Both the position numbers and the translations under genes were made by a program. A stretch of DNA of 32,000 nt. It comes from Candidatus Saccharimonadota bacterium. Its GTDB lineage: Bacteria > Pseudomonadota > Alphaproteobacteria > CAJXXZ01 > 1604HC. This document shows, one piece after another, positions 4,931-15,426 of this stretch. How positions within the stretch are numbered: position 1 is the stretch's first letter; every line of letters begins with the position of its first letter. The DNA lies in NCBI RefSeq assembly GCF_008189525.1, contig NZ_CP043314.1, positions 583,989 to 615,988 of the forward strand, read 5' to 3'. Under the pieces are notes generated by a model that saw only the letters and a program-made list of their open reading frames with translations, ran no database searches and had not been told where the DNA came from.

Positions 4931-5206
4931 ATGCTTAAAGACAGAAAATACACCAAGTATGAACTTGTTTCAGCATTAACTCAAAGAGCTAAGCAACTGT
5001 TTGCAGGAGATGATCCTAGAGTAGAAACAAAGCATTCTGAAAAACTATCTTACATAGCGTTAAAAGAGTATATGCAAGGTCTTTTGGACATAGAATCTTT
5101 ACTTAATGAAGCTAAAATGATTTACACAGATCAGGCTGTAGCTTTTGAAGATGATGAAGATGATGACAACTATGCATTCGATGCAAACGAAGAAGACAAG
5201 CAATAA
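4931..5206 (+). CDS. rpoZ: DNA-directed RNA polymerase subunit omega
   Basis: KYELVSALTQRAKQLFAGDDPRVE....KLSYIALKEYMQGLL matches the omega core (nRFeLv.lAakRArQL ... K.v.iALrEia.G). The acidic C-terminal tail is also seen in Rickettsiales-type omega. Confidence 0.72.
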   Translation: MLKDRKYTKYELVSALTQRAKQLFAGDDPRVETKHSEKLSYIALKEYMQGLLDIESLLNEAKMIYTDQAVAFEDDEDDDNYAFDANEEDKQ

Positions 5207-5447: not shown

Positions 5448-5506
5448 ACATAAACATTGTGTATAAGGGTATATTTTGGTAAGTTCTTTGCAAGATCTCA
5501 GGAGGG
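5448..5506 (+). promoter_or_regulatory. conserved 5' leader with Shine-Dalgarno (AGGAGGG) and a possible promoter of the LRR operon; mirrored at 17238-17295 on the minus strand
   Basis: About 60 nt upstream of the LRR1 start are almost identical to the sequence upstream of LRR4 (acataaacattgtgtataagggtatattttggtaagttctttgcaagatctcaggaggg vs acataacattgcgtataagagtatattttggtaagttctttgcaagatctcaggaggg). A weak sigma70-like TTGTGT-17-TAAGTT can be read. The promoter call is only an inference from conservation. Confidence 0.35.
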
Positions 5507-5727
5507 ATGATGACAAGTAATTTGGATAAATTTACATCTGGAGCTAGTGCAAAACAGAGTGCTAACGCTAACGGAAGTACGAACAAGGCAAGCAAATCAA
5601 GCACTATGAGCAAAATGAGGAGCATACTGAAGCTATGCACACTTGCACTTACAGCCCAACACACAAACACGGTTGACATCCCGAAACTACACGACATCCC
5701 TAACGAACATGGTTGTTTTTATCATTT
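5448..5727 (+). repeat. outer inverted repeat, left copy (leader + first ~74 codons of LRR1)
   Basis: Aligns to the reverse complement of 17018-17295 with only a handful of mismatches and a 1-nt indel in the leader. Homology stops abruptly after ...ggttgtttttatcattt. Confidence 0.9.
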
Positions 5728-7522
5728 GAAATATACAAAAAATGGAACTTTGGATTTATATGAAAGCGGATTGCCAAAATATGAAAGTGGATTGGTAGAT
5801 CTGTTAGATGGAATGGTAGAAATGCATAAATTCAGCAAATCTGACATAGAATTTGTTGCGTTTCTAAGACATGAAATAGAAAAAATCCTTGAAGTTGATT
5901 ACAATAAGGGACTAGAAAATGACTTCTTACTTAAATTTCCAAAAATAAAGGGCATAATAGGAGATGGTGAGCTTGAAGAAGAAGTTTTAGCTGAACATGG
6001 ATACTCAAAAGAAGATTATGACAGTACTATTACTGGGTATAATGTTAGAGATTCTTTGGATTGTTTGATTCGTGCCAAGAGAATTTGGGGCAAAATGATT
6101 GACCAATATGGGGAAGAAGATCTTAACAAAATCAAAGATTCAGTAAAAAATGCAAACCATGAATACGAATTAGGGAAAAAAACTCACCTAAACTTAAAAG
6201 TTATGCATAATTTGGTAGGATATGGATTAAGGCAAAGAGAAGCAGCTGGTATGCCAGATGAATCTACATTTTTGCAAAGATGGTACTCTGGAAGACATGC
6301 TTATGCAGACGATAAAAAGTCTAAAGTATCTATAAAACTAGATAATAGTGCGTTTATTTATCAAGTAATTCCTACTAAAGATTCAGGCACAGACTATGAG
6401 AAGAAACCTTGCGAACGTCATTCGAATATTATGTCTGTTTCATATTTCGATGCAAATACAAAAACAGACAATTTAGTTTGGGCTGGAGATGAAAGAGAAT
6501 TAAAAGAGAGAACCTGCAAAGTTGTTCAATACAACAGCTTCCCAGATTTAAGAAACTTGGATAGAATCGGTCCAATTTTCCAATATGCACTGGCATTGAG
6601 ATATGTTCATTTAGATATCACAAGCCCTGATCATTTGTATTGGATGAGATTTGCGCAAGACTTGGAATATGTGAAATTGAGAGTTACAGAATCAGACCAC
6701 CTAAAGCACTTGGGTTTGTTGAAAAACACACAATACTTAGGTATTACTAACATAAACGTAGATGATGCAATCATTCTTCCTGAAGAAATCGGCACATTAA
6801 GCAAATTAAGGTGCTTACACTTGAGTGGAGTTGAAGGATATCCAAACCAGATTCATGGAATTAAAGGATTACGTGAAATTAAGTTCGTGGAATCCGAAGG
6901 TAAGATAGATAAAAGCTTAAGTGATTTAGATAAATTGGTACATTTGGAGTTAAGTGGTAAGGTAGAATTGCCTGAAACTATAGAATTATGGGGGCTAGAA
7001 TCTCTTGTTGCACCTAGCGCAGATATAGAAAAAATGCCTAGATTTATCTGCCCTGAATTAAGGTATTTAGATTTAGGAAGTGCAAGATTAGACCATGCTT
7101 TAGAGCCTGGAGCAAAATTACCTATATTTGCAGGTGGTAATGAAATGACCAAAGCAGTAGATTTATCTGAATGCCCTGAGCTACGTGAAGTTTGGGTTGG
7201 AAACAGAATCAACGAAGTTGACGTGTCTGTGTTTAAGAGTTGCAAAAAGTTGATGTATATTGGACTTGGAGTTGATTTTAAGTACAGTATTAAATCAGGT
7301 TTGACTGAGTATGTTAAGAAAAATGAGCTATTCTTCGAGTTACTACATCCACTTAATGCAGGTGAAAAATTGCAATACAACTGTAAGATTCCAGGAGAAG
7401 ATGGTGAGTGGCTGAAGTTAAAGAGATACCAAGAAAACCAAAAGAGAAATTGGGTAAGAAATAAAAATGCTAGATATAAGCATATGGCAAAAATCTTGAA
7501 AGAAAATGGTCAGCTAAAATAG
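5507..7522 (+). CDS. leucine-rich-repeat protein, island paralog 1 (candidate secreted effector)
   Basis: 671-aa ORF, very long for an AT-rich genome. The C-terminal half has LxxLxxLxL repeats with a eukaryote-like LPEEIGxLxxLxxLxL unit (LPEEIGTLSKLRCLHLSG, LDKLVHLELSG, PELRYLDLGS, CPELREVWVGN). The N-terminal ~330 aa have no motif I recognise. The S/T/N/A-rich head is followed by the shared MSKMR.ILKLCTLALTAQHTNTVDIPKLHD module. Confidence 0.8.
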   Translation: MMTSNLDKFTSGASAKQSANANGSTNKASKSSTMSKMRSILKLCTLALTAQHTNTVDIPKLHDIPNEHGCFYHLKYTKNGTLDLYESGLPKYESGLVDLLDGMVEMHKFSKSDIEFVAFLRHEIEKILEVDYNKGLENDFLLKFPKIKGIIGDGELEEEVLAEHGYSKEDYDSTITGYNVRDSLDCLIRAKRIWGKMIDQYGEEDLNKIKDSVKNANHEYELGKKTHLNLKVMHNLVGYGLRQREAAGMPDESTFLQRWYSGRHAYADDKKSKVSIKLDNSAFIYQVIPTKDSGTDYEKKPCERHSNIMSVSYFDANTKTDNLVWAGDERELKERTCKVVQYNSFPDLRNLDRIGPIFQYALALRYVHLDITSPDHLYWMRFAQDLEYVKLRVTESDHLKHLGLLKNTQYLGITNINVDDAIILPEEIGTLSKLRCLHLSGVEGYPNQIHGIKGLREIKFVESEGKIDKSLSDLDKLVHLELSGKVELPETIELWGLESLVAPSADIEKMPRFICPELRYLDLGSARLDHALEPGAKLPIFAGGNEMTKAVDLSECPELREVWVGNRINEVDVSVFKSCKKLMYIGLGVDFKYSIKSGLTEYVKKNELFFELLHPLNAGEKLQYNCKIPGEDGEWLKLKRYQENQKRNWVRNKNARYKHMAKILKENGQLK

Positions 7523-10500
7523 ATGGAGGCAAAAAATATGATTACAAACAAATATAAAATGGGTAATATGAGCAAAATGAGGAACATACTGAAGCTATGC
7601 ACACTTGCACTTACAGCCCAACACACAAACACGGTTGACATCCCTAAACTACACGACACCCCTAACGAACATGGTTGTTTTTATCATTTTAAGTACGTTG
7701 AAGGAACTTTTAGCATAGAAAAGAATGAAACTTTTGAACTTTTAGAGCAAATGTATGAACAAAGTAAATACAGCATAGAGGATATTAAATTAATCGCATT
7801 TCTAAGACATGAACTAGAGAAGATACTTGAAATTGATTATAAAAAAGGATTGGAAAATGATTTCTTGCTAAAGTTTCCAAAAATAGAAGAAGTTATGGGA
7901 GATGGAGAATGGGAAGAGGAGGTTTTCCTAGGTCATGGATATTCAAAAGAAGAGTATAGACAAACTGATATAGTCTGTAACGTCAGAGATGCTATTTCTT
8001 ATATGGAATATACAAAAAGAATCTGGGGCAAAATTATAAAACAAGAAGATGAGGAAACTGCTAAAGAAATAAAAGATTCAGTAAAAAATACAAATCATGA
8101 ATGCGAGCTAGGTCAGAAAACCTATCTAAACTTAGGAGCTATGCTTAATTCCATAGGATATGGATTGAGACAGAGAAAAGAAGCTAGAATGCCAGGTGAA
8201 TCTACATTTTTGCAAAGGTGGTATTCTGGAAGACATGCTTATGAAGATGACAAAAAATCTAAAGTATCTATAAAGTTGGATAATAGCAAATTTATCTATC
8301 AGGGCATACCCACTAAAGATTCAGGAACTGACTATGAGAAAAAACCTATAGAATATAATAATTCTACAGATTTGATGTATTTATCCTATTTCGATGCAAA
8401 CACAAAAACAGATAATCTGGTATGGTGTGGAGATGAAAGAGAACTTAAGGAAAGAACCTGCAAAGTTGTTCAATACAATAGCTTTCCAGATTTGAGAAAC
8501 TTGGATAGGATAGGTCCAATTTTCCAATATGCACTGGCTTTAAGGTATGTTCATTTGGATATAACAAGCCCTGATCATTTGTATTGGATGAGATTCGCAC
8601 AAGATTTGGAATATGTGAAATTGCGTGTAAAAGAATCAGATCATCTAACACATTTAGGTTTGTTGAAAAATACACAATACCTTGGAATTACCAACATAAA
8701 CGTAGACGAAGCGATCGTTCTTCCTGAAGAAATCGGCACATTAAGCAAATTAAGGTGCTTACACTTGAGTGGAGTTGAAGGATATCCGAACCAGATTCAT
8801 GGAATAAAAGGATTACGTGAAATTAAGTTCGTGGAATCTGAAGGTAAAATTGATAAAAGTTTGAGCAACCTAGATAAACTTGTTCATTTAGAGCTAAGTG
8901 GAAAAGTAGAATTGCCTGAAACCATAGAACTATGGGAACTACAATCTCTAGTTGCACCTAGTGCAGACATAGAAAAGATGCCTAAGTTTATTTGCCCTGA
9001 ATTAAGATATTTGGATCTAGGAAGTGCAAGATTAGAGCATGCTTTAGAACCTGGAGCAAAATTGCCTATATTTGCAGGTGGTAATGAAATAACAAGCGTA
9101 TCTGACTTATCTGAATGTCCAGAATTAAGAGAAGTTTGGGTTGGAAACAGAATCAACGAAGTTGATGTTGAAGTGTTTAAGAATTGCAAGAAGTTGATGT
9201 ACATAGGATTAGGAGTTGATTTTAAATATAATATCAAGCAAGGATTAACTGAGTATGTTAAGAAAAATGAGCTATTCTTAGAGTTACTACATCCACTTAA
9301 TGCAGGAGAAAAACTTCAATACAGCTGTAAGATTCCAGGTGAAGATGGTGAATGGTTGAAATTGAAGAGATACCAAGAAAATCAAAAAAGAAATTGGGTA
9401 AGAAATAAAAATGCTAGATATAAGCATATGGCAAAAATCTTGAAAGAAAATGGTCAGCTAAAATAGATGGAGGCAAAAAATATGATTACAAACAAATATA
9501 AAATGGGTAATATGAGCAAAATGAGGAACATACTGAAATTGTGTACGCTTGCACTTACAGCCCAACACACAAACACGGTTGACATCCCGAAACTACATGA
9601 CACCCCTAACGAACATGGCTGTTTTTATCATTTTAAGTACGTTGAAGGAACATTGAATCTGGAACAGAATGAAACCTACGAACTTTTGGAAGGAATGTAT
9701 GAGCAAAGCAAATACAGCTCAGAAGATATAAAATTGATTGCCTTCTTAAGACACGAACTAGAAAAGATTCTTGAAGTTGATTATAAAAAGGGGTTAGAAA
9801 ATGACTTCTTGCTCAAGTTTCCTAAAATAGAGGAAGTTATGGGAGACGGAGAATGGGAAGAAGAAGTTCTACTAGGTCATGGATACTCAAAAGAAGATTA
9901 CAGACAAACTGTTATTACCTGTAATGTTAGAGATTCTTTTGATTGCTTGATTCGCTCAAAAAGGATCTGGGGCAAGATGATTGACCAATATGGAGAAGAG
10001 GATCTAAACAAAATAAAAGATTCAATAAAAAATGCAAACCATGAGCATGAATTTGGAAAGAAAACTCATCTTAATTTAAAAGTTATGCATAATTTGGTAG
10101 GATATGGATTAAGACAAAGAGAAGCAGCTAAAATGCCAGATGAATCTACATTTTTGCAAAGATGGTACTCTGGAAGACATGCTTATGAAGATGACAAAAA
10201 ATCTAAAGTATCTATAAAGTTAGATAACAGTGCATTTATTTATCAAGGCATCCCTACTAAAGATTCAGAAACTGATTATGAAAATAAACCTTGCGAACGT
10301 GATTCAAATATTATGTATGTATCATATTTCGATGCAAATACAAAAACAGACAATTTAGTTTGGGCTGGAGATGAAAGAGAATTAAAAGAGAGAACCTGCA
10401 AAGTTGTTCAATACAATAGTTTCCCCGATTTAAGAAACTTGGACAGAATCGGTCCTATTTTCCAATATGCATTGGCTTTAAGGTATGTACATTTGGATAT

Positions 10501-11330
10501 CACTAGCCCTGATCATTTGTACTGGATGAGATTTGCACAAGACTTAGAGTATGTGAAATTGAGAGTTACAGAATCAGACCACCTAAAGCACTTGGGTTTG
10601 TTAAAAAACACACAATACCTTGGAATTACCAACATAAACGTAGATGATGCAATCGTTCTTCCTGAAGAAATTGGTAGTTTAAGCAAATTAAGATGCTTAC
10701 ATTTAAGCGGAGTTGAAGGATATCCAAACCAGATCCATGGCATTAAGGGATTACGCGAAATTAAATTCGTAGAATCTGAAGGTAAGATAGACAAAAGCTT
10801 AAGTAATCTGGACAAGCTTGTTCACTTAGAACTAAGCGGTAAAGTAGAGTTGCCTGAAACCATAGAATTATGGGAACTACAATCTCTAGTTGCACCTAGT
10901 GCAGACATAGAGAAAATGCCCCAATTTATCTGCCCTGAATTAAGATACTTAGATCTAGGAAGTGCAAGATTAGAGCATGCTTTAGAACCTGGAGCAAAAT
11001 TGCCTATATTTGCAGGTGGTAATGAAATTACTAGCGTATCTGACTTGTCCGAATGTCCTGAGCTACGTGAAGTTTGGGTTGGAAACAGAATCAACGAAGT
11101 TGACGTGTCTGTATTTAAGAGTTGTAAGAAGTTGATGTATATTGGACTTGGAGTTGATTTTAAGTACAGTATTAAATCAGGTTTGACTGAGTATGTTAAG
11201 AAAAATGAGCTATTCTTCGAGTTACTACATCCACTTAATGCAGGTGAGAAATTGCAATACAACTGCAAGATTCCAGGAGAAGATGGTGAGTGGTTGAAAT
11301 TAAAGAGATACCAAGAAAACCAAAAGAGAA
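5606..11330 (+). repeat. tandem direct repeat of whole LRR genes, about 3 units (period 1944 bp between units 2 and 3, 1962 bp between units 1 and 2)
   Basis: The ATGAGCAAAATGAGG (MSKMR) anchor recurs at 5606, 7568 and 9512. The two inter-unit junctions (…gaaaatggtcagctaaaatagatggaggcaaaaaatatgattacaaac…) are identical. Homology ends near 11330, where unit 3 acquires a different tail. Confidence 0.9.
7523..9466 (+). CDS. leucine-rich-repeat protein, island paralog 2
   Basis: 647-aa ORF starting immediately after the TAG of paralog 1. GGAGG at 7525-7529 lies 8 nt upstream of the ATG at 7538, so 7538 is the more likely true start. The gene is highly similar to paralogs 1 and 3. Confidence 0.8.
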   Translation: MEAKNMITNKYKMGNMSKMRNILKLCTLALTAQHTNTVDIPKLHDTPNEHGCFYHFKYVEGTFSIEKNETFELLEQMYEQSKYSIEDIKLIAFLRHELEKILEIDYKKGLENDFLLKFPKIEEVMGDGEWEEEVFLGHGYSKEEYRQTDIVCNVRDAISYMEYTKRIWGKIIKQEDEETAKEIKDSVKNTNHECELGQKTYLNLGAMLNSIGYGLRQRKEARMPGESTFLQRWYSGRHAYEDDKKSKVSIKLDNSKFIYQGIPTKDSGTDYEKKPIEYNNSTDLMYLSYFDANTKTDNLVWCGDERELKERTCKVVQYNSFPDLRNLDRIGPIFQYALALRYVHLDITSPDHLYWMRFAQDLEYVKLRVKESDHLTHLGLLKNTQYLGITNINVDEAIVLPEEIGTLSKLRCLHLSGVEGYPNQIHGIKGLREIKFVESEGKIDKSLSNLDKLVHLELSGKVELPETIELWELQSLVAPSADIEKMPKFICPELRYLDLGSARLEHALEPGAKLPIFAGGNEITSVSDLSECPELREVWVGNRINEVDVEVFKNCKKLMYIGLGVDFKYNIKQGLTEYVKKNELFLELLHPLNAGEKLQYSCKIPGEDGEWLKLKRYQENQKRNWVRNKNARYKHMAKILKENGQLK

Positions 11331-11389
11331 GCTGGATGAGAAAAGAACACCCAAGGTACAAACGCATGGAAAAGATCTTTAAGGTTTAA
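9467..11389 (+). CDS. leucine-rich-repeat protein, island paralog 3 (mosaic of paralogs 1 and 2, unique C-terminal tail)
   Basis: 640-aa ORF with the same TAG-ATGGAGGCAAAAAATATG junction as at 7520-7540, so the likely true start is 9482. The sequence alternates between paralog-2-like and paralog-1-like blocks. The last ~20 aa (SWMRKEHPRYKRMEKIFKV) are unique. Confidence 0.8.
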   Translation: MEAKNMITNKYKMGNMSKMRNILKLCTLALTAQHTNTVDIPKLHDTPNEHGCFYHFKYVEGTLNLEQNETYELLEGMYEQSKYSSEDIKLIAFLRHELEKILEVDYKKGLENDFLLKFPKIEEVMGDGEWEEEVLLGHGYSKEDYRQTVITCNVRDSFDCLIRSKRIWGKMIDQYGEEDLNKIKDSIKNANHEHEFGKKTHLNLKVMHNLVGYGLRQREAAKMPDESTFLQRWYSGRHAYEDDKKSKVSIKLDNSAFIYQGIPTKDSETDYENKPCERDSNIMYVSYFDANTKTDNLVWAGDERELKERTCKVVQYNSFPDLRNLDRIGPIFQYALALRYVHLDITSPDHLYWMRFAQDLEYVKLRVTESDHLKHLGLLKNTQYLGITNINVDDAIVLPEEIGSLSKLRCLHLSGVEGYPNQIHGIKGLREIKFVESEGKIDKSLSNLDKLVHLELSGKVELPETIELWELQSLVAPSADIEKMPQFICPELRYLDLGSARLEHALEPGAKLPIFAGGNEITSVSDLSECPELREVWVGNRINEVDVSVFKSCKKLMYIGLGVDFKYSIKSGLTEYVKKNELFFELLHPLNAGEKLQYNCKIPGEDGEWLKLKRYQENQKRSWMRKEHPRYKRMEKIFKV

Positions 11390-11393
11390 TTCA

Positions 11394-12143
11394 GTGGGAG
11401 CAAGAGGAGATCGTTCTACTAAGGAAAAAAAAGAAAAAGCAAAGGAAGTAGAACAGCAGCAAGAAACCATAATTGATGAAGAACCCGTCGATCCAGATAT
11501 AGGAAGTATATGTCAGATATACGATGAGAAGTGGGGCGAGACGGTAAGGAACGTAAATGCAGGTACGTATCAGAAACTGATGACGCTTACAAATTTCGGT
11601 ACAATTGAAGAACTAGAAATAGAGGAAGAGCTGTCTGAGCCTTACACTATAAAAGGTAAGTGTTTCTTTTGGGAAGAGATATATGGCGACGTAGTTGGCA
11701 TGGAACCGAAGGTCACATTAGCAACAGAAGGTAAAACAAGATATTGGCACGGAGTTATAACTGAGTGGATCGAAGGTGGAACTGATCTTAAGGACGAAAG
11801 ATATTACTACGAATTCGAGATGCGACCAAAATTATGGTATAGGATGCAAAGCAGGCAAAACAAGATACATGTGTCGGATAAGGGCATGCGTGTTAAGGAA
11901 CTGGCAAGCAAACTAATCGAAGATGCGATGCAGAATAATAAAAATACGAAAGTAAAGTTTGAGCAAAAGTACGATGTTAATTTCGCAAAAGTGAAATCAG
12001 CTCAAAATAATCCAAATGAACCATTGATAGAATATGCTGTGCAATATGAAGAAACTACTTACGGTTTCTTCCAAAGATTACTAAGCAATCATGGTATATT
12101 TTATTATTATAAAGTCGAAGACAATTATTCCTGCCTAAGCTAA
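11394..12143 (+). pseudogene. vgrG: vgrG 5' fragment (gp27-like N-terminal ~240 codons only); truncated paralog, possibly still translated
   Basis: Residues ~33-240 are identical to residues ~28-235 of the full VgrG (12853-15426, minus strand) except for two positions. After ...GIFYYYK the sequence diverges and stops 9 codons later (VEDNYSCLS*). There is only a GTG start, 5 nt after the LRR3 stop, and no ATG. Confidence 0.75.
11489..12113 (+). repeat. inner inverted repeat, left copy (vgrG 5' region)
   Basis: Hand alignment to the reverse complement of 14722-15346 gives ~625 bp with about 31 mismatches and no indels seen. The first ~110 bp are identical. Confidence 0.9.
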
Positions 12144-12274
12144 ATTCCACTTATTTAAAAAATCTGATTACTAGAGCTTACAATTAAAAAGATTGATAAG
12201 TGATAAAACTACAAAAACATAAACATACAAAATCAGAATTATCAACAAAATATTTCAACTGTAGTAAGAAAATA

Positions 12275-12853
12275 CTAACCCATCTCTACGCCAGATTCAA
12301 AATAAGTTTTCTTGATTATTTTTCCTTCTGGATCATATACAGTCCATTGCCCATCTTTTAAATCTTCAAGATACATTCCAGACTCCATGATAGAACCTGT
12401 TTTCGGATAAAAAGTCACAGAAAAACCATTCAATTTATTTTTCTGGAAAATTTCTTGTTTTAACAATTCTCCTTTTTCGAAAACCAAAAACAGCCCGCTT
12501 TTCTCTCCATTTTTGTAATTACCCTTATTAGATATTCCATTTGCATCAAATACGTACACAGGTCCGTGCATCAAATCATCTTTATAATTTGTAATCATTA
12601 ATAAATTCCCAGATTCATATATTTCCATAGGCCCATTCATCTTATTACCAGAATAATTTGTGCGTCTCGTTATGACACTTTTCTCATAAAGAGTCTCTTC
12701 GCCTTCTTTTTCTCCAGCTTTGGAATAGTATCTCTGTACCAGATTTCCTTCTTTATCCCTTATTTCATTATAATCTAAATCACTTTGATCTGATTCTTTG
12801 ACTGCTCCACAAGGCTTATAAAAATCGACTATTTGTTCTTTTGTTATATTCAT
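12275..12853 (-). CDS. MORN-repeat-variant (YwqK-like) protein, translationally coupled to vgrG
   Basis: 192 aa with repeated units of G....Y..G...G of ~23 aa (NYSGNKMNGPMEIYESGNLL, NYKDDLMHGPVYVFDANGIS, NYKNGEKSGLFLVFEKGELL, FQKNKLNGFSVTFYPKTGSI, MYLEDLKDGQWTVYDPEGKI). The ATG overlaps the vgrG TAA by 1 nt (CTAATG at 12851-12856). Confidence 0.7.
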   Translation of the reverse strand: MNITKEQIVDFYKPCGAVKESDQSDLDYNEIRDKEGNLVQRYYSKAGEKEGEETLYEKSVITRRTNYSGNKMNGPMEIYESGNLLMITNYKDDLMHGPVYVFDANGISNKGNYKNGEKSGLFLVFEKGELLKQEIFQKNKLNGFSVTFYPKTGSIMESGMYLEDLKDGQWTVYDPEGKIIKKTYFESGVEMG

Positions 12854-15426
12854 TAGTTTATTTTTACCATTGAACCCTTTATATTAGCAATTGTGTCTGC
12901 CTTTAAATCCAATTTAGCTCCTTTTATAGACACTCCCGCTTTTCCTTCTATTGAAACTTGTCCCGAAGATTTCAAGCTTATATTAGCATTCGAAGAAATT
13001 TCTACAGATTTGCTAGATTCCATATTAATTCCATCTGCAGAAATTTTTATAGCACCTCCACTTATAGATATTGTATAATCACCAGACTTTATACTAATTG
13101 ACTTGTTCCCTTTTATATCAGATTTAAAGTCCCCACTTGATAATGAAATTGATAAATCACCTTTTTCTAATGTTGTACTCAAATTTCCTGAAGCCAATTT
13201 CATATCCAAATTACCTTTTTCTATTTCGTTAGAAATATTTCCTTCTGTGATTTTCTCTATCAAATCACCTTTGGAGATTTCTATTTTATGATGTGATTTC
13301 TCATCTCCCTTGGATAATAGAGAAATTTCCTTGCTCCCTTTTTCTAGTGTTATTTTATAATCACCCTGCTTTTCATCATCTTCAGCTAGAGTGCTTATTT
13401 CTATATTTCCATTATTTACCTGCGTATCAATATCCCCTTGTTTTACAAGCAAAATTTTGTCATTTTCTATTTCTGTAAGTAAATCTTTCTGTGCATGGAT
13501 ATAAATTTGCTCTTCTTCAGCTTTATCAGATATAGTAATTTCATTGAATCCAAAATCTTCTTTTTCATCATCAATTGTTTTGGTTCTCAATCCAGTTTTA
13601 TGAGAATCATCTGGCAAATCATATGGATTAGAATTTATGCTATTAAATACCGTACCTATAACAATAGGGTTGTCTGGATTTCCATTTTCATAAGTAACTA
13701 TTACTTCTTGTCCAACTCTAGGTATGTAAGAGCCTCCAAATCCAGCGCCTGATCCTCCCCATTGTGCGACTCTCACCCAGCAAGATCTTTCAGAATAAGA
13801 AAGCGTATCATCGTTGTCCCAGTTGAATTTTATTTTCACTCTACCTAAGTCATCAGTGTTGATTTCTGCATTATCAGGCCCTACCACAATAGCAGATTGA
13901 TATCCTAATATTTGTCTTTTTACTTTAGGAAGCACTTTAAAAACTGTATTCTCTTTCAGGAAAATAGATTCATTTACATAAGAATATTCAAACCCACTTA
14001 CTTGACCAGCTTTGCTTTTTATATTTTGTTGTTTGTACAAAGGGTCAGTTAACGACTCTTCTGCCATTTCTGGGTTTTTCAAAAACAGTTTATGCTTAGT
14101 TTTTCTAGCATAGTATTTATTATCTATGACTTCTTTTACCTGATCAGGAAGATCTCTTTTTGATGCTGCTTTAACATCTGATTTAATTTTTTTTATTTTA
14201 CTTTTCTTTTCAGTTTTGTAAACTTTTGTATGTTGATATAAATCTAGGGCAGATTTTAGCTCAAACAAATATCCAGGGCTAATCAAAAAATTACTTGTCA
14301 CAGACTTATATTGAGTTTTTACAGACTCTGATGAGTCAGTAATATGCTTTGCATGGTCCTCTGCAGCATCTGGGTCAGTTAATGTTTCGAAGTATTCATT
14401 ATTTTCAAAGCCTTCTTCAGCATTTCCCTCATGCTTTTTCTCTTCAACTTTTCCAAGTTTATCGAATTCTACCTCGATACCTGCTTTTTCGTAATTTCGA
14501 CCTCTTGCCTTTTGTTTTCCTATCGCATATCTGTTTACTTTTCCCCATGTATCCACAAAAGGGCTGTTTATTTCATCTGATCCCTGTTTAGATAAGAACA
14601 AGTTGTCATAATTAGCTTCGACCTTGTCATTATCACCTATTTCAATCTTACGTATGCCTGTAATAGGTTCCATTTTGGAAGTGTTATCCTTGAATATGAT
14701 TTTACTTCCATCTTTCGCATGTTTATAGTAATAAAATATACCATGATTGCTCAGTAACCTTTGAAAAAACTCATATGTAGTTTCTTCATATTGAACTGCA
14801 TATTCTATTAACGGTCCGTTTGGATTATTTTGAGCTGATTTCACTTTTGCGAAATTAACATCGTACTTTTGCTCAAATTTTACTTTCGTATTCTTGTTAT
14901 TCTGCATCGCATCTTCGATTAGTTTGCTTGCCAGCTCCTTAACACGCATGCCCTTATCCGACACATGTATCTTGTTTTGCCTGCTTTGCATCCTATACCA
15001 TAATTTTGGTCGCATCTCGAATTCGTAGTAATATCTTTCATCCTTAAGATCAGTTCCACCTTCGATCCACTCAGTTATAACTCCGTGCCAATATCTTGTT
15101 TTACCTTCTGTTGCCAATGTGACCTTCGGCTCCATACCAACTACGTCGCCATATATCTCTTCCCAAAAGAAACACTTACCTTTTATAGTATAAGGTTCCG
15201 ATAATTCTTCCTCTATCTCGAGTTCTTCAATTGTACCGAAATTTGTAAGCGTCATCAGTTTCTGATACGTACCTGCATTTACGTTCCTTACCGTCTCGCC
15301 CCACTTCTCATCGTATATCTGACATATACTTCCTATATCTGGATCGGTAGTTTGAGATTCAGCACTTTTCTGTGCAGAAACTTCACCGTCTTTAGTTTTC
15401 TTTTTCTCTTTATTTTGTTTAATCAT
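12853..15426 (-). CDS. vgrG: type VI secretion spike protein VgrG (gp27-like + gp5-like OB fold + beta-helix; no C-terminal effector domain evident)
   Basis: The classic VgrG core is present: GYQSAIVVGPDNAEINTDDLGRVKIKFNWDND....SCWVRVAQWGGSGAGFGGSYIPRVGQEVIVTYENGNPDNPIVIGTVFNS...PYDLPD..HKTGLRTKT......GFNEITISDKAEEEQIYIHAQKDL. It is followed by short K/S/G/D-rich beta-helix repeats (EKGDLSISLSSGDFKSDIKGNKSISIKSGDYTISISGG...) and ends in ...GSMVKIN. Confidence 0.92.
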   Translation of the reverse strand: MIKQNKEKKKTKDGEVSAQKSAESQTTDPDIGSICQIYDEKWGETVRNVNAGTYQKLMTLTNFGTIEELEIEEELSEPYTIKGKCFFWEEIYGDVVGMEPKVTLATEGKTRYWHGVITEWIEGGTDLKDERYYYEFEMRPKLWYRMQSRQNKIHVSDKGMRVKELASKLIEDAMQNNKNTKVKFEQKYDVNFAKVKSAQNNPNGPLIEYAVQYEETTYEFFQRLLSNHGIFYYYKHAKDGSKIIFKDNTSKMEPITGIRKIEIGDNDKVEANYDNLFLSKQGSDEINSPFVDTWGKVNRYAIGKQKARGRNYEKAGIEVEFDKLGKVEEKKHEGNAEEGFENNEYFETLTDPDAAEDHAKHITDSSESVKTQYKSVTSNFLISPGYLFELKSALDLYQHTKVYKTEKKSKIKKIKSDVKAASKRDLPDQVKEVIDNKYYARKTKHKLFLKNPEMAEESLTDPLYKQQNIKSKAGQVSGFEYSYVNESIFLKENTVFKVLPKVKRQILGYQSAIVVGPDNAEINTDDLGRVKIKFNWDNDDTLSYSERSCWVRVAQWGGSGAGFGGSYIPRVGQEVIVTYENGNPDNPIVIGTVFNSINSNPYDLPDDSHKTGLRTKTIDDEKEDFGFNEITISDKAEEEQIYIHAQKDLLTEIENDKILLVKQGDIDTQVNNGNIEISTLAEDDEKQGDYKITLEKGSKEISLLSKGDEKSHHKIEISKGDLIEKITEGNISNEIEKGNLDMKLASGNLSTTLEKGDLSISLSSGDFKSDIKGNKSISIKSGDYTISISGGAIKISADGINMESSKSVEISSNANISLKSSGQVSIEGKAGVSIKGAKLDLKADTIANIKGSMVKIN
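14722..15346 (-). repeat. inner inverted repeat, right copy (5' region of intact vgrG)
   Basis: Reverse complement of 11489-12113; see the left copy. Confidence 0.9.

What the first reader, a model, noticed from the sequence alone, without database searches (positions are those of the whole stretch)
11489..15346. Inverted vgrG 5' repeats bracket the vgrG 3' part and the MORN gene: possible recombinational switch of the intact spike between the two effector arms
The ~625-bp inverted repeats flank a 2.6-kb segment (12114-14721). That segment carries everything needed to complete a vgrG (codons ~236-857) plus the coupled MORN gene. Homologous recombination within the repeats preserves the frame and would flip the segment. 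The result would be LRR1-LRR2-LRR3 -> intact vgrG -> MORN on the plus strand, with LRR4 left beside the 9-codon dead-end tail (VEDNYSCLS*). The first ~110 bp of the repeat are identical, which is ample for RecA-mediated exchange. A switch of this kind would also explain why both 5' copies stay protein-coding (see the previous finding). No site-specific invertase is visible, so any switch would be RecA-type, or this is the fossil of a single inversion or deletion event.
Basis: inference. Interest (0 to 1): 0.7.

Follow-up and report, generated by a model that had tools for sequence, protein, structure and literature searches.

The report
Truncated vgrG copy forms inverted repeat
In the tiny genome of the protist endosymbiont Ca. 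Nesciobacter abundans, a cut-off second copy of the type VI secretion spike gene mirrors the start of the intact copy; this looks like a young relic of an old duplicate kept partly alike by gene conversion, not a working DNA switch.

Summary
Arms 11489-12113 and 14722-15346 form a 625-nt, 95% inverted repeat around the vgrG 3' body and its coupled MORN/YwqK gene. An in-silico flip preserves the reading frame. The window is Ca. Nesciobacter abundans, a 616-kb Holosporaceae symbiont of Diplonema japonicum.

The switch reading is not supported:
- An Illumina (2019) and a PacBio HiFi (2025) assembly show the same orientation.
- No invertase is present.
- The arms are not kept homogeneous: dS is 0.18 over the outer 525 nt and about 1.7 over the inner 100 nt.
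- The left copy's inner third stays attached to the dead-end tail whichever way the segment flips. Flipping therefore cannot explain its strong protein conservation (omega 0.014).
- A flip would change only the first ~30 residues and two internal residues of the spike.

Best reading: these are two old convergent LRR-vgrG modules. The left vgrG was recently truncated in the middle of its hub domain, and patchy RecA/RecFOR gene conversion acts between the 5' parts.

Open leads:
- One Trinity isoform may join the left 5' end to the right body, but that component is demonstrably mis-assembled.
- The closest relative (a 622-kb genome) has vgrG-MORN bracketed by ~99% identical 1.3-kb inverted repeats.

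The parts
5453..5733 (+). Shared 5' module of LRR1 (54 nt upstream plus the first 227 nt of coding sequence). It forms an outer inverted repeat with 17011-17291, the 5' end of LRR4.
   Evidence: 281 nt, 96% complementary. LRR1/LRR4 identity is 96% in the first 150 nt and then ~45-50%.
5507..11389 (+). Left arm: three tandem LRR genes, LRR1 5507-7522, LRR2 7523-9466 and LRR3 9467-11389. They are paralogues with mosaic identity of 62-98%.
   Evidence: ORFs. Pfam LRR_14/LRR_4/LRR_8 hits, LRR_4 above its cutoff for LRR3. Direct-repeat families with ~1.94-kb period. Identity profile.
11394..12143 (+). Truncated vgrG (249 aa, GTG start 4 nt after the LRR3 stop). It consists of a divergent 32-codon N-terminus, the left repeat arm, and a 9-codon tail VEDNYSCLS followed by a stop.
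   Evidence: Phage_GPD profile positions 2-148 of 305 only. TIGR03361 scores 68 bits against a cutoff of 186. The truncation point aligns to ~residue 172 of the 645-aa solved VgrG 7q5p, which is inside the hub domain. Annotated as QEK39303.1.
11489..12113 (+). Left arm of the 625-nt inverted repeat (vgrG codons DPD...YYYK).
12114..12274 (.). Unique junction: the dead-end tail (12114-12143) plus a 131-nt spacer up to the MORN stop. It holds no relic of a vgrG 3' end or of a second MORN gene, and no terminator-like hairpin.
   Evidence: blastn-short and tblastn find nothing above chance. Terminator scan finds 0 sites.
12275..12853 (-). MORN_2/YwqK-family gene (192 aa), translationally coupled to vgrG with a shared base at 12853.
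   Evidence: PF07661, E 9e-6 but below the gathering score. Sources name it a YwqK-family antitoxin. vgrG followed by a coupled downstream gene is conserved in the relatives L003, L008 and L009.
12853..15426 (-). Intact vgrG/tssI (857 aa).
   Evidence: Pfam and NCBIfam. Matches solved VgrG structures. Annotated as QEK39305.1.
14722..15346 (-). Right arm of the 625-nt inverted repeat (codons 28-235 of the intact vgrG).
15432..17237 (-). Right arm gene LRR4 (601 aa), located 5 nt upstream of vgrG. It shares only its first ~230 nt with LRR1-3.
17359..17431 (-). tRNA-Gln (anticodon UUG) at the right border of the island.
   Evidence: ARAGORN and Rfam.

Best explanation
The repeat is the shared 5' third of two old vgrG paralogues. 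Each closes one of two convergent LRR-effector operons in the T6SS spike island of Ca. Nesciobacter abundans: LRR1-2-3 -> vgrG' on the plus strand, and LRR4 -> vgrG -> MORN on the minus strand.

Shown:
- The right paralogue is intact.
- The left one stops after codon ~240, in the middle of the gp27-like hub domain, and no downstream remnant survives.
- The two arms are a mosaic of identical tracts and old, synonymously saturated patches.

Inferred:
- The left gene was complete and under purifying selection for nearly all of its history, and it lost its 3' body (and probably its own MORN partner) only recently.
- RecA/RecFOR gene conversion has occasionally copied stretches between the two 5' parts. 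It has done the same between the 5' modules of the LRR genes.
- A reciprocal crossover in the 126-, 104- or 74-nt identical tracts is physically possible and would invert the 2.6-kb segment in frame. It would be rare, unregulated and almost without phenotypic consequence, so the locus is not a programmed switch.
- Inverted repeats persist around vgrG because exchange between them only inverts the intervening DNA, whereas direct repeats would delete the single spike gene.
For: 1. Both independent assemblies carry the exact 857-aa and 249-aa proteins and the same neighbours. The window is identical to the HiFi locus over 22.6 kb. The two sequencing technologies are documented.

2. There are 29 synonymous and 2 nonsynonymous differences, giving dN/dS of 0.014-0.017. 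If the left copy had been neutral throughout, 68% of differences would be nonsynonymous (P=7e-13). The neutral period is at most ~6% of the divergence.

3. The inner patch has dS ~1.7 and omega 0.014, and the outer 525 nt have dS 0.18. The N-terminal 32 codons are unalignable. This indicates old paralogues, not a recent duplication.

4. Differences are clustered (P=0.0005-0.02), with identical tracts of 126, 104 and 74 nt. This is the pattern expected of a gene-conversion mosaic. LRR1 versus LRR4 shows the same pattern: 96% identity and then ~47%.

5. The truncation lies inside the hub domain: Phage_GPD profile position 148 of 305, and ~residue 172 of 7q5p.

6. The genome is reported to have RecA/RecFOR and MutSL but no RecBCD. 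No invertase is present in the window.

7. Seven sampled relatives' vgrG loci each have a single vgrG. Those with downstream sequence held also have a coupled downstream gene. None has a vgrG fragment, so the second copy is lineage-specific.
Against: - The left ORF is fully open (249 codons, including A-runs) and shows no excess of amino-acid changes. That pattern would also fit a fragment that is itself under selection.
- 'Recent' truncation is an inference. No deletion scar or remnant was found.
- One Trinity ORF (P0006, isoform i2) starts at the first ATG expected on a left-type 5' end yet continues into the right-type body. This is what a flipped molecule would encode.
- The closest relative has vgrG-MORN bracketed by ~99% identical inverted repeats. 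Inverted-repeat bracketing of the spike gene therefore recurs and might be selected.
- No close strain could be compared.
- I could not check whether a third vgrG copy elsewhere in the genome donated the diverged patches.
Confidence: 0.6

Rival explanations
1. One reading: a RecA-type flip-flop. The 2.6-kb segment inverts repeatedly by homologous exchange in the arms. The intact spike plus MORN is thereby attached alternately to the LRR1-3 operon or to the LRR4 operon, and this alternation is biologically used.
For: - The geometry is frame-preserving.
- Identical tracts of 126, 104 and 74 nt exceed the usual minimal length for RecA exchange (the minimal length is my own knowledge).
- RecA/RecFOR are reported.
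- The conversion mosaic shows that the arms do interact.
- Trinity isoform i2 (P0006) is compatible with a left-5'/right-3' junction.
- The nearest relative has vgrG-MORN bracketed by ~99% identical inverted repeats.
Against: - Two assemblies made years apart, with different technologies, show one orientation.
- The arms are 5% diverged, with dS of 0.18 and 1.7. A frequently used homologous switch would homogenise them. MutSL is reported present and should suppress exchange between diverged DNA (own knowledge).
- The left inner haplotype (arm positions ~450-618) is permanently tied to the dead-end tail, so flipping cannot account for its omega of 0.014.
- The flip changes only ~30 N-terminal residues and 2 internal residues of VgrG. 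Both operons share the same 281-nt 5' module.
- The Trinity component is demonstrably mis-assembled. Both ORFs end in a 245-nt back-jump read in another frame. A chimeric path through a 126-nt identical tract is expected whenever both copies are transcribed.
Confidence: 0.12
2. The 249-aa product is a functional, selected protein in its own right, for example an N-terminal VgrG piece that modulates spike assembly or binds LRR cargo. On this reading the repeat is simply two related genes.
For: - The ORF is open and omega is 0.014, with no nonsynonymous change in the outer 422 nonsynonymous sites.
- It lies 4 nt behind the LRR3 stop, with an AAGG sequence about 10 nt upstream of the GTG start.
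- The genome is reported to have very few pseudogenes.
Against: - It ends in the middle of the gp27-like hub domain, so less than half of the fold is present.
- None of the seven sampled relatives has such a fragment.
- The 9-codon tail is unique sequence followed directly by a stop.
- Low omega is equally explained by a young truncation plus conversion from the intact copy.
Confidence: 0.12
3. A recent partial inverted duplication of the 5' end of the single vgrG. On this reading there was never a second complete gene.
For: The outer end has 126 identical bases, both repeat ends are abrupt, and no remnant of a second 3' body survives.
Against: - The inner 100 nt are saturated at synonymous sites (dS ~1.7) yet conserved in protein. 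This requires a long period as a selected coding sequence separate from the right copy.
- The N-terminal 32 codons are unrelated.
- The flanking LRR genes are also old paralogues.
Confidence: 0.04
4. Assembly artefact: a collapsed or mis-joined repeat.
For: None.
Against: An Illumina and a HiFi assembly give identical sequence and identical gene products. The arms differ at 31 positions, so they can be told apart.
Confidence: 0.01

Closest known systems
Campylobacter fetus sap (S-layer) nested inversion system. Cited from my own knowledge (Dworkin & Blaser, 1996-1997); a literature search here returned nothing.
   Same: The inverted repeats are the conserved ~600-bp 5' coding parts of oppositely oriented paralogues. 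Exchange is by RecA-dependent homologous recombination, needs no invertase, and preserves the reading frame.
   Different: In C. fetus the flipped segment carries the single promoter between divergent 5' ends. All partners are complete genes with different products, the 5' regions are near-identical, and inversion has been demonstrated. Here the 5' ends converge on a shared 3' body, one partner is a dead end, the arms are 5% diverged, only one orientation is seen, and both products would be nearly the same.
Concerted evolution of inverted paralogues such as tufA/tufB in Salmonella (own knowledge: Abdulkarim & Hughes 1996).
   Same: RecA-dependent gene conversion produces a mosaic of identical tracts between inverted coding repeats. 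Occasional reciprocal exchange gives an inversion as a by-product.
   Different: Both tuf genes are complete and essential. Here one partner is truncated.
T6SS vgrG/Rhs effector islands with displaced or 'orphan' gene fragments (own knowledge).
   Same: A spike-gene island carries several effector modules and a truncated homologous fragment that can still recombine with the main gene.
   Different: Orphans are usually 3' toxin/immunity ends in direct orientation that can replace the main gene's tip. Here a 5' fragment lies in inverted orientation, and the cargo genes (LRR) are upstream of vgrG.
Site-specific invertase switches and shufflons (Hin/Gin, Rci, hsdS systems) and intragenic invertons (own knowledge).
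   Same: A DNA segment bounded by inverted repeats, whose inversion re-joins coding sequence in frame.
   Different: Those systems use short (tens of bp) recombination sites and a dedicated recombinase, and they are observed in both orientations. None of these features is found here.
The vgrG locus of the nearest relative (L008, a 621,866-bp circular genome, probably a Cytomitobacter-type diplonemid symbiont).
   Same: The vgrG -> coupled MORN-like unit is bracketed by long inverted repeats made of flanking cargo-like genes.
   Different: In L008 the repeats are two outward-reading copies of an unrelated ~557-aa gene. They are ~99% identical over 1310 and 263 nt and enclose a swapped ~80-residue cassette. 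The whole vgrG lies inside the repeats, and there is no vgrG fragment.

Membership tests
T6SS spike protein VgrG/TssI | gp27-like hub (Phage_GPD) plus gp5 OB fold (Phage_base_V) plus a beta-helix, scoring above the TIGR03361 cutoff. | tested here: met
   The 857-aa protein has all three Pfam domains and scores 305.5 bits on TIGR03361 against a cutoff of 186. It matches solved VgrGs at E 2e-44.
T6SS spike protein VgrG/TssI (the 249-aa left copy) | A complete hub and an OB fold. | tested here: not met
   It covers only Phage_GPD profile positions 2-148 of 305. TIGR03361 scores 68 bits, below 186. No OB fold is present.
Site-specific DNA inversion switch | A recombinase or invertase gene in or next to the element. 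| tested here: not met
   All ORFs of the 32-kb window were assigned or scanned, and none is a recombinase.
Site-specific DNA inversion switch | Both orientations present in sequence data. | tested here: inconclusive
   Two assemblies show one orientation. One Trinity ORF is compatible with the other orientation but comes from a mis-assembled component.
RecA-dependent homologous inversion system (C. fetus sap type) | Long inverted repeats formed by the 5' coding regions of paralogues. | tested here: met
   625 nt in the same codon phase.
RecA-dependent homologous inversion system (C. fetus sap type) | Arms kept (near-)identical by frequent exchange. | tested here: not met
   95% identity. dS is 0.18 in the outer part and ~1.7 in the inner part.
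RecA-dependent homologous inversion system (C. fetus sap type) | The alternative orientations express different products. | tested here: not met
   The flip yields an 862-aa VgrG that differs only in its N-terminal ~30 residues and 2 internal residues. The LRR genes are unchanged.
RecA-dependent homologous inversion system (C. fetus sap type) | recA present in the genome. | not testable with these tools
   RecA and RecFOR are reported present and RecBCD absent by George et al.. The rest of the genome could not be read here.
Pseudogene / gene relic | Truncation that removes essential domains. | tested here: met
   The ORF ends inside the hub domain and lacks 622 codons.
Pseudogene / gene relic | Relaxed selection, seen as excess nonsynonymous changes, frameshifts or stops. 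| tested here: not met
   omega is 0.014 and the ORF is intact. If this is a relic, it must therefore be young or refreshed by conversion.
MORN_2 / YwqK-family partner of VgrG | MORN_2 repeats, and a position immediately downstream of vgrG. | tested here: inconclusive
   PF07661 scores 25.7 bits, below the gathering score of 29.6. The position and the coupling are conserved in L003, L008 and L009. The 'immunity' role is an annotation and has not been tested.

The most novel reading that the evidence does not exclude
In diplonemid Holosporaceae symbionts, the spike-plus-MORN core may be a recombinationally invertible cassette. Long inverted repeats, made of vgrG 5' parts in Nesciobacter and of cargo-gene copies in the 622-kb relative L008, would let RecA flip the core. 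The single spike gene would then be coupled alternately to different cargo arms. This would give a minimal genome stochastic variation in T6SS loading or expression without any dedicated recombinase.
Probability: 0.1. Interest if true: 0.65.

Novelty: new member of a known kind. Interest (0 to 1): 0.33.

Why it matters
As it stands, this is a well-resolved example of how paralogous effector/spike modules decay and exchange sequence in a 616-kb symbiont genome that was reported as stable and nearly free of pseudogenes. It shows that RecA/RecFOR-type conversion has still been shaping the T6SS island.

It also corrects the annotation: the 249-aa 'VgrG' (QEK39303.1) is a truncated copy.

If inversion were shown to occur, here or at the much better preserved repeats of the relative L008, it would be a recombinase-free way of varying T6SS spike-cargo coupling in an obligate intracellular bacterium. 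Existing PacBio HiFi data can test this directly.

Tried and rejected
- Close-strain comparison failed. The metagenome scan found no relative.
- The word-seeded protein search with the full VgrG was swamped by K/E-rich low-complexity words and gave 2 hits.
- The search with the OB-core alignment returned only short fragments of query-like length.
- Searching with the relative P0001 gave a large Holosporaceae VgrG family, all ~35% identical to the query and none close.
- I looked in the 90% clusters for flipped-orientation proteins. Only two Trinity ORFs turned up. The LRR clusters held no Trinity ORFs that could reveal the 5' context of isoform i2.
- I searched the 161 nt after the left arm for a deletion scar or a relic of a second vgrG 3' end or MORN gene, and found nothing above chance.
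- Promoter and terminator scans were uninformative: 50 promoter-like sites against 56 expected, and 0 terminators.
- Literature searches for vgrG inversions and for the C. fetus precedent returned nothing usable.
- I considered a GC3-skew test of the segment's historical orientation and dropped it because the segment is too short and the test would be too noisy.
- I rejected the recent-duplication and assembly-artefact explanations (see rival explanations).

Full report
**What is there.** The window is part of the 616-kb chromosome of Candidatus Nesciobacter abundans, a Holosporaceae endosymbiont of the diplonemid Diplonema japonicum. The exact proteins carry accessions QEK39300-39307. The locus is 100% identical over 22.6 kb to OY490516.1 (GCA_960610765.1).

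An island lies between rpoZ (4931-5206) and tRNA-Gln (17359-17431). Its G+C content is slightly raised, 0.32-0.39 against 0.28-0.30 in the flanks. It holds two convergent operons:
- On the plus strand: three tandem LRR genes (5507-11389), followed 4 nt later by a 249-aa vgrG fragment (11394-12143).
- On the minus strand: LRR4 (17237-15432), followed 5 nt later by an intact 857-aa vgrG (15426-12853) and an overlapping 192-aa MORN_2/YwqK-family gene (12853-12275).

**The observation.**
- The arms are codons 28-235 of vgrG and share the same codon phase.
- The outermost 126 nt are identical.
- Both ends of the repeat are abrupt. Upstream, the two N-terminal extensions of about 30 codons are unrelated. 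Downstream, the left copy runs into VEDNYSCLS and a stop, while the right copy continues as HAKDGSK....
- Reverse-complementing 12114-14721 in silico gives an 862-aa VgrG plus MORN behind LRR3, and a 244-aa dead end behind LRR4.
- No recombinase is encoded anywhere in the 32 kb.
- All repeats of at least 60 nt in the window lie in this island.

**What the differences between the arms say.** Of the 31 differences, 29 are synonymous and 2 are not, giving dN/dS of 0.014-0.017. If the truncated copy had drifted neutrally since the copies separated, about 68% of the differences should change an amino acid (binomial P = 7e-13). The data allow a neutral phase of at most about 6% of the divergence.

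The differences are not spread evenly. Identical tracts of 126, 104 and 74 nt alternate with dense patches, and clustering is significant (P = 0.0005-0.02 in 20,000 permutations). The inner patch (arm positions 525-599) holds 14 differences in 75 nt. Over the inner ~100 nt, dS is about 1.7 and omega is 0.014. Over the outer 525 nt, dS is 0.18 with no amino-acid change.

The LRR genes show the same mosaic. LRR1 and LRR4 are 96% identical over a 281-nt 5' module that includes 54 nt upstream of the start codon. They are only about 45-50% identical afterwards.

The simplest reading is two old paralogous modules whose homologous 5' parts have been homogenised in patches by gene conversion. This rules out a recent partial duplication.

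**Why this argues against the switch.**

1. Linkage. A crossover in the outer identical tracts carries every SNP that lies inside it along with the segment. The left copy's inner haplotype (19 of the 31 differences lie at arm positions 450-618, including both amino-acid changes) therefore stays joined to the dead-end tail in either orientation. It can never be exposed to selection as part of an intact spike, yet it is as protein-conserved as the rest. Its conservation must date from a time when the left gene was complete, or else the fragment is itself selected.

2. Arm divergence. Homologous switches that are really used keep their arms almost identical. Here even the better-matched part has dS of 0.18. 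The genome is also reported to retain MutSL, which suppresses exchange between diverged sequences (own knowledge).

3. One orientation. Two independent assemblies of symbionts from the same host strain both encode the exact 857-aa and 249-aa products, so both show the same orientation. One was built from Illumina reads with SPAdes (2019) and the other from PacBio HiFi reads (2025).

4. Little to switch. A flip would change only the N-terminal ~30 residues and two internal residues of VgrG. The LRR genes lie upstream of vgrG in both operons, and both operons begin with the same 5' module. Very little would actually be switched (inference).

**What remains in favour of inversion.**
- RecA and RecFOR are reported present.
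- The identical tracts are long enough for RecA exchange (own knowledge).
- The conversion mosaic shows that the arms have interacted.

There is also one piece of RNA-level evidence. The 90%-identity cluster of the VgrG contains two ORFs from a Trinity assembly of the host transcriptome (EukProt EP01064).
- P0005 (isoform i1) has the right-type start and the right-type body, as in the genome.
- P0006 (isoform i2) begins at MTLTNFG. This is the first ATG an ATG-only ORF caller would find on a left-type 5' end, because the left copy starts with GTG and has no earlier ATG. It nevertheless continues into the right-type body.

That is what a flipped molecule would encode. However, both ORFs end in a 27-residue tail that maps 245 nt back in the same gene in another frame. 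This Trinity component is therefore demonstrably mis-assembled. A false path through a 126-nt identical tract is expected whenever both copies are transcribed. I treat this as a lead, not as evidence.

**Relatives.** No close strain is available. An exhaustive HMMER search showed that the nearest VgrG outside the query's own cluster is only 36% identical (P0256).

I sampled seven vgrG loci in relatives (L003-L005, L007, L009, L011, L013). Each has a single vgrG, and those with downstream sequence held also have a coupled downstream gene, which is MORN_2-like where a Pfam hit is recorded. None has LRR arms, a second vgrG fragment or long inverted repeats. The vgrG-MORN pair is thus the conserved unit, and the double-arm layout is lineage-specific.

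- Its whole vgrG plus MORN-like core (9919-13501) is bracketed by inverted repeats of 1310 and 263 nt.
- These are two outward-reading copies of an unrelated ~557-aa gene.
- The repeat interiors are essentially identical, with one difference in about 1,280 nt.
- They enclose a swapped, unrelated cassette of about 80 residues.

Inverted-repeat bracketing of the spike gene therefore occurs twice among these tiny genomes, with non-homologous repeats and opposite geometry. This may simply reflect survivorship. Direct repeats around the only spike gene would delete it, while inverted ones do no harm (inference). It also keeps alive the more interesting possibility that inversion of the spike core is used, and L008 is the better place to test that.

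**Verdict.** The repeat is real and correctly described.

The best-supported explanation (confidence about 0.6) has three parts:
- The left copy is a young relic of a second, formerly complete vgrG paralogue.
- It was truncated inside the hub domain: Phage_GPD profile position 148 of 305, about residue 172 of the solved VgrG 7q5p.
- Occasional RecA/RecFOR gene conversion acts between the paralogous 5' parts.

Rare in-frame inversion is physically possible, but it is unsupported as a switch and would be nearly neutral.

Rival explanations:
- A used flip-flop switch (about 0.12).
- A functional 249-aa fragment (about 0.12).
- A recent partial duplication (about 0.04).
- An assembly artefact (about 0.01).

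Existing HiFi reads would settle the matter directly.

Noticed in passing
L008:8118-15308 (circular 621,866-bp contig ena:ERZ25333236:ctg610_525x_c): In the nearest relative, the whole vgrG plus MORN-like core (9919-13501) is bracketed by inverted repeats of 1310 nt and 263 nt. Their interiors differ at a single position. They are two outward-reading copies of a ~557-aa gene with a signal-peptide-like N-terminus. The two proteins are identical except for an unrelated ~80-residue cassette (residues 53-133). This locus is a much better candidate for homologous inversion than the Nesciobacter one.
   Followed up: partly
window 5453-5733, 7568-7696, 9512-9640 versus 17010-17291: All four LRR genes share a 5' module at 96-97% nucleotide identity (protein MSKMRNILKLCTLALTAQHTNTVDIPKLHD.PNEHGCFYH.KY). 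LRR4 is otherwise only ~45-50% identical to LRR1-3. For LRR1 and LRR4 the shared stretch includes 54 nt upstream of the start codon. The module looks like a conserved targeting or signal-peptide-like domain on variable cargo. It also creates nested inverted repeats that could flip the whole 11.3-kb island.
   Followed up: partly
P0005/P0006 (EukProt EP01064, Diplonema japonicum, TRINITY_DN1348_c0_g1_i1.p2 and i2.p1); window 14299 and 14462-14542: The symbiont's vgrG is present in the host transcriptome assembly, so the locus is transcribed. Isoform i2 may join a left-type 5' end to the right-type body. Both isoforms contain a 245-nt back-jump (after window position 14299 the sequence resumes at ~14542 in another frame), which marks a Trinity mis-assembly. 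No ORF with the VEDNYSCLS tail is in the cluster.
   Followed up: partly
window 17359-17431 and 4931-5206: The LRR/vgrG island is bounded by tRNA-Gln on one side and rpoZ on the other. Its G+C content (0.32-0.39) is higher than that of the flanks (0.28-0.30). An rpoZ homologue also lies ~4 kb from vgrG, in convergent orientation, in the distant relatives L005 and L006. This may be a remnant of synteny.
   Followed up: no
L003:175-3079; L009:10001-14664; L008:10001-13497; window 12275-15426: A gene overlapping or directly following the vgrG stop is conserved across Holosporaceae-type VgrG loci. It is MORN_2-like where a Pfam hit exists, and its length ranges from 190 to 426 aa. The literature calls it an immunity protein, but this is annotation only, and a conserved spike partner or adaptor is equally possible.
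   Followed up: partly
window 7523-7537 and 9467-9481; 5507 and 17237: Start codons of the LRR genes are called differently between annotations: 647 vs 642 aa, 640 vs 635 aa, 671 vs 670 aa, and 601 vs 600 aa. If translation really starts at the internal MSKMR..., the proteins would begin with a Sec-signal-like sequence. That would bear on whether they are T6SS cargo at all.
   Followed up: no
window 12853-15426 (VgrG residues ~240-480): Compared with its relatives and with solved VgrGs, the Nesciobacter VgrG has a long K/E-rich low-complexity insertion between the hub and the OB fold. This insertion swamped the word-based homology search.
   Followed up: no
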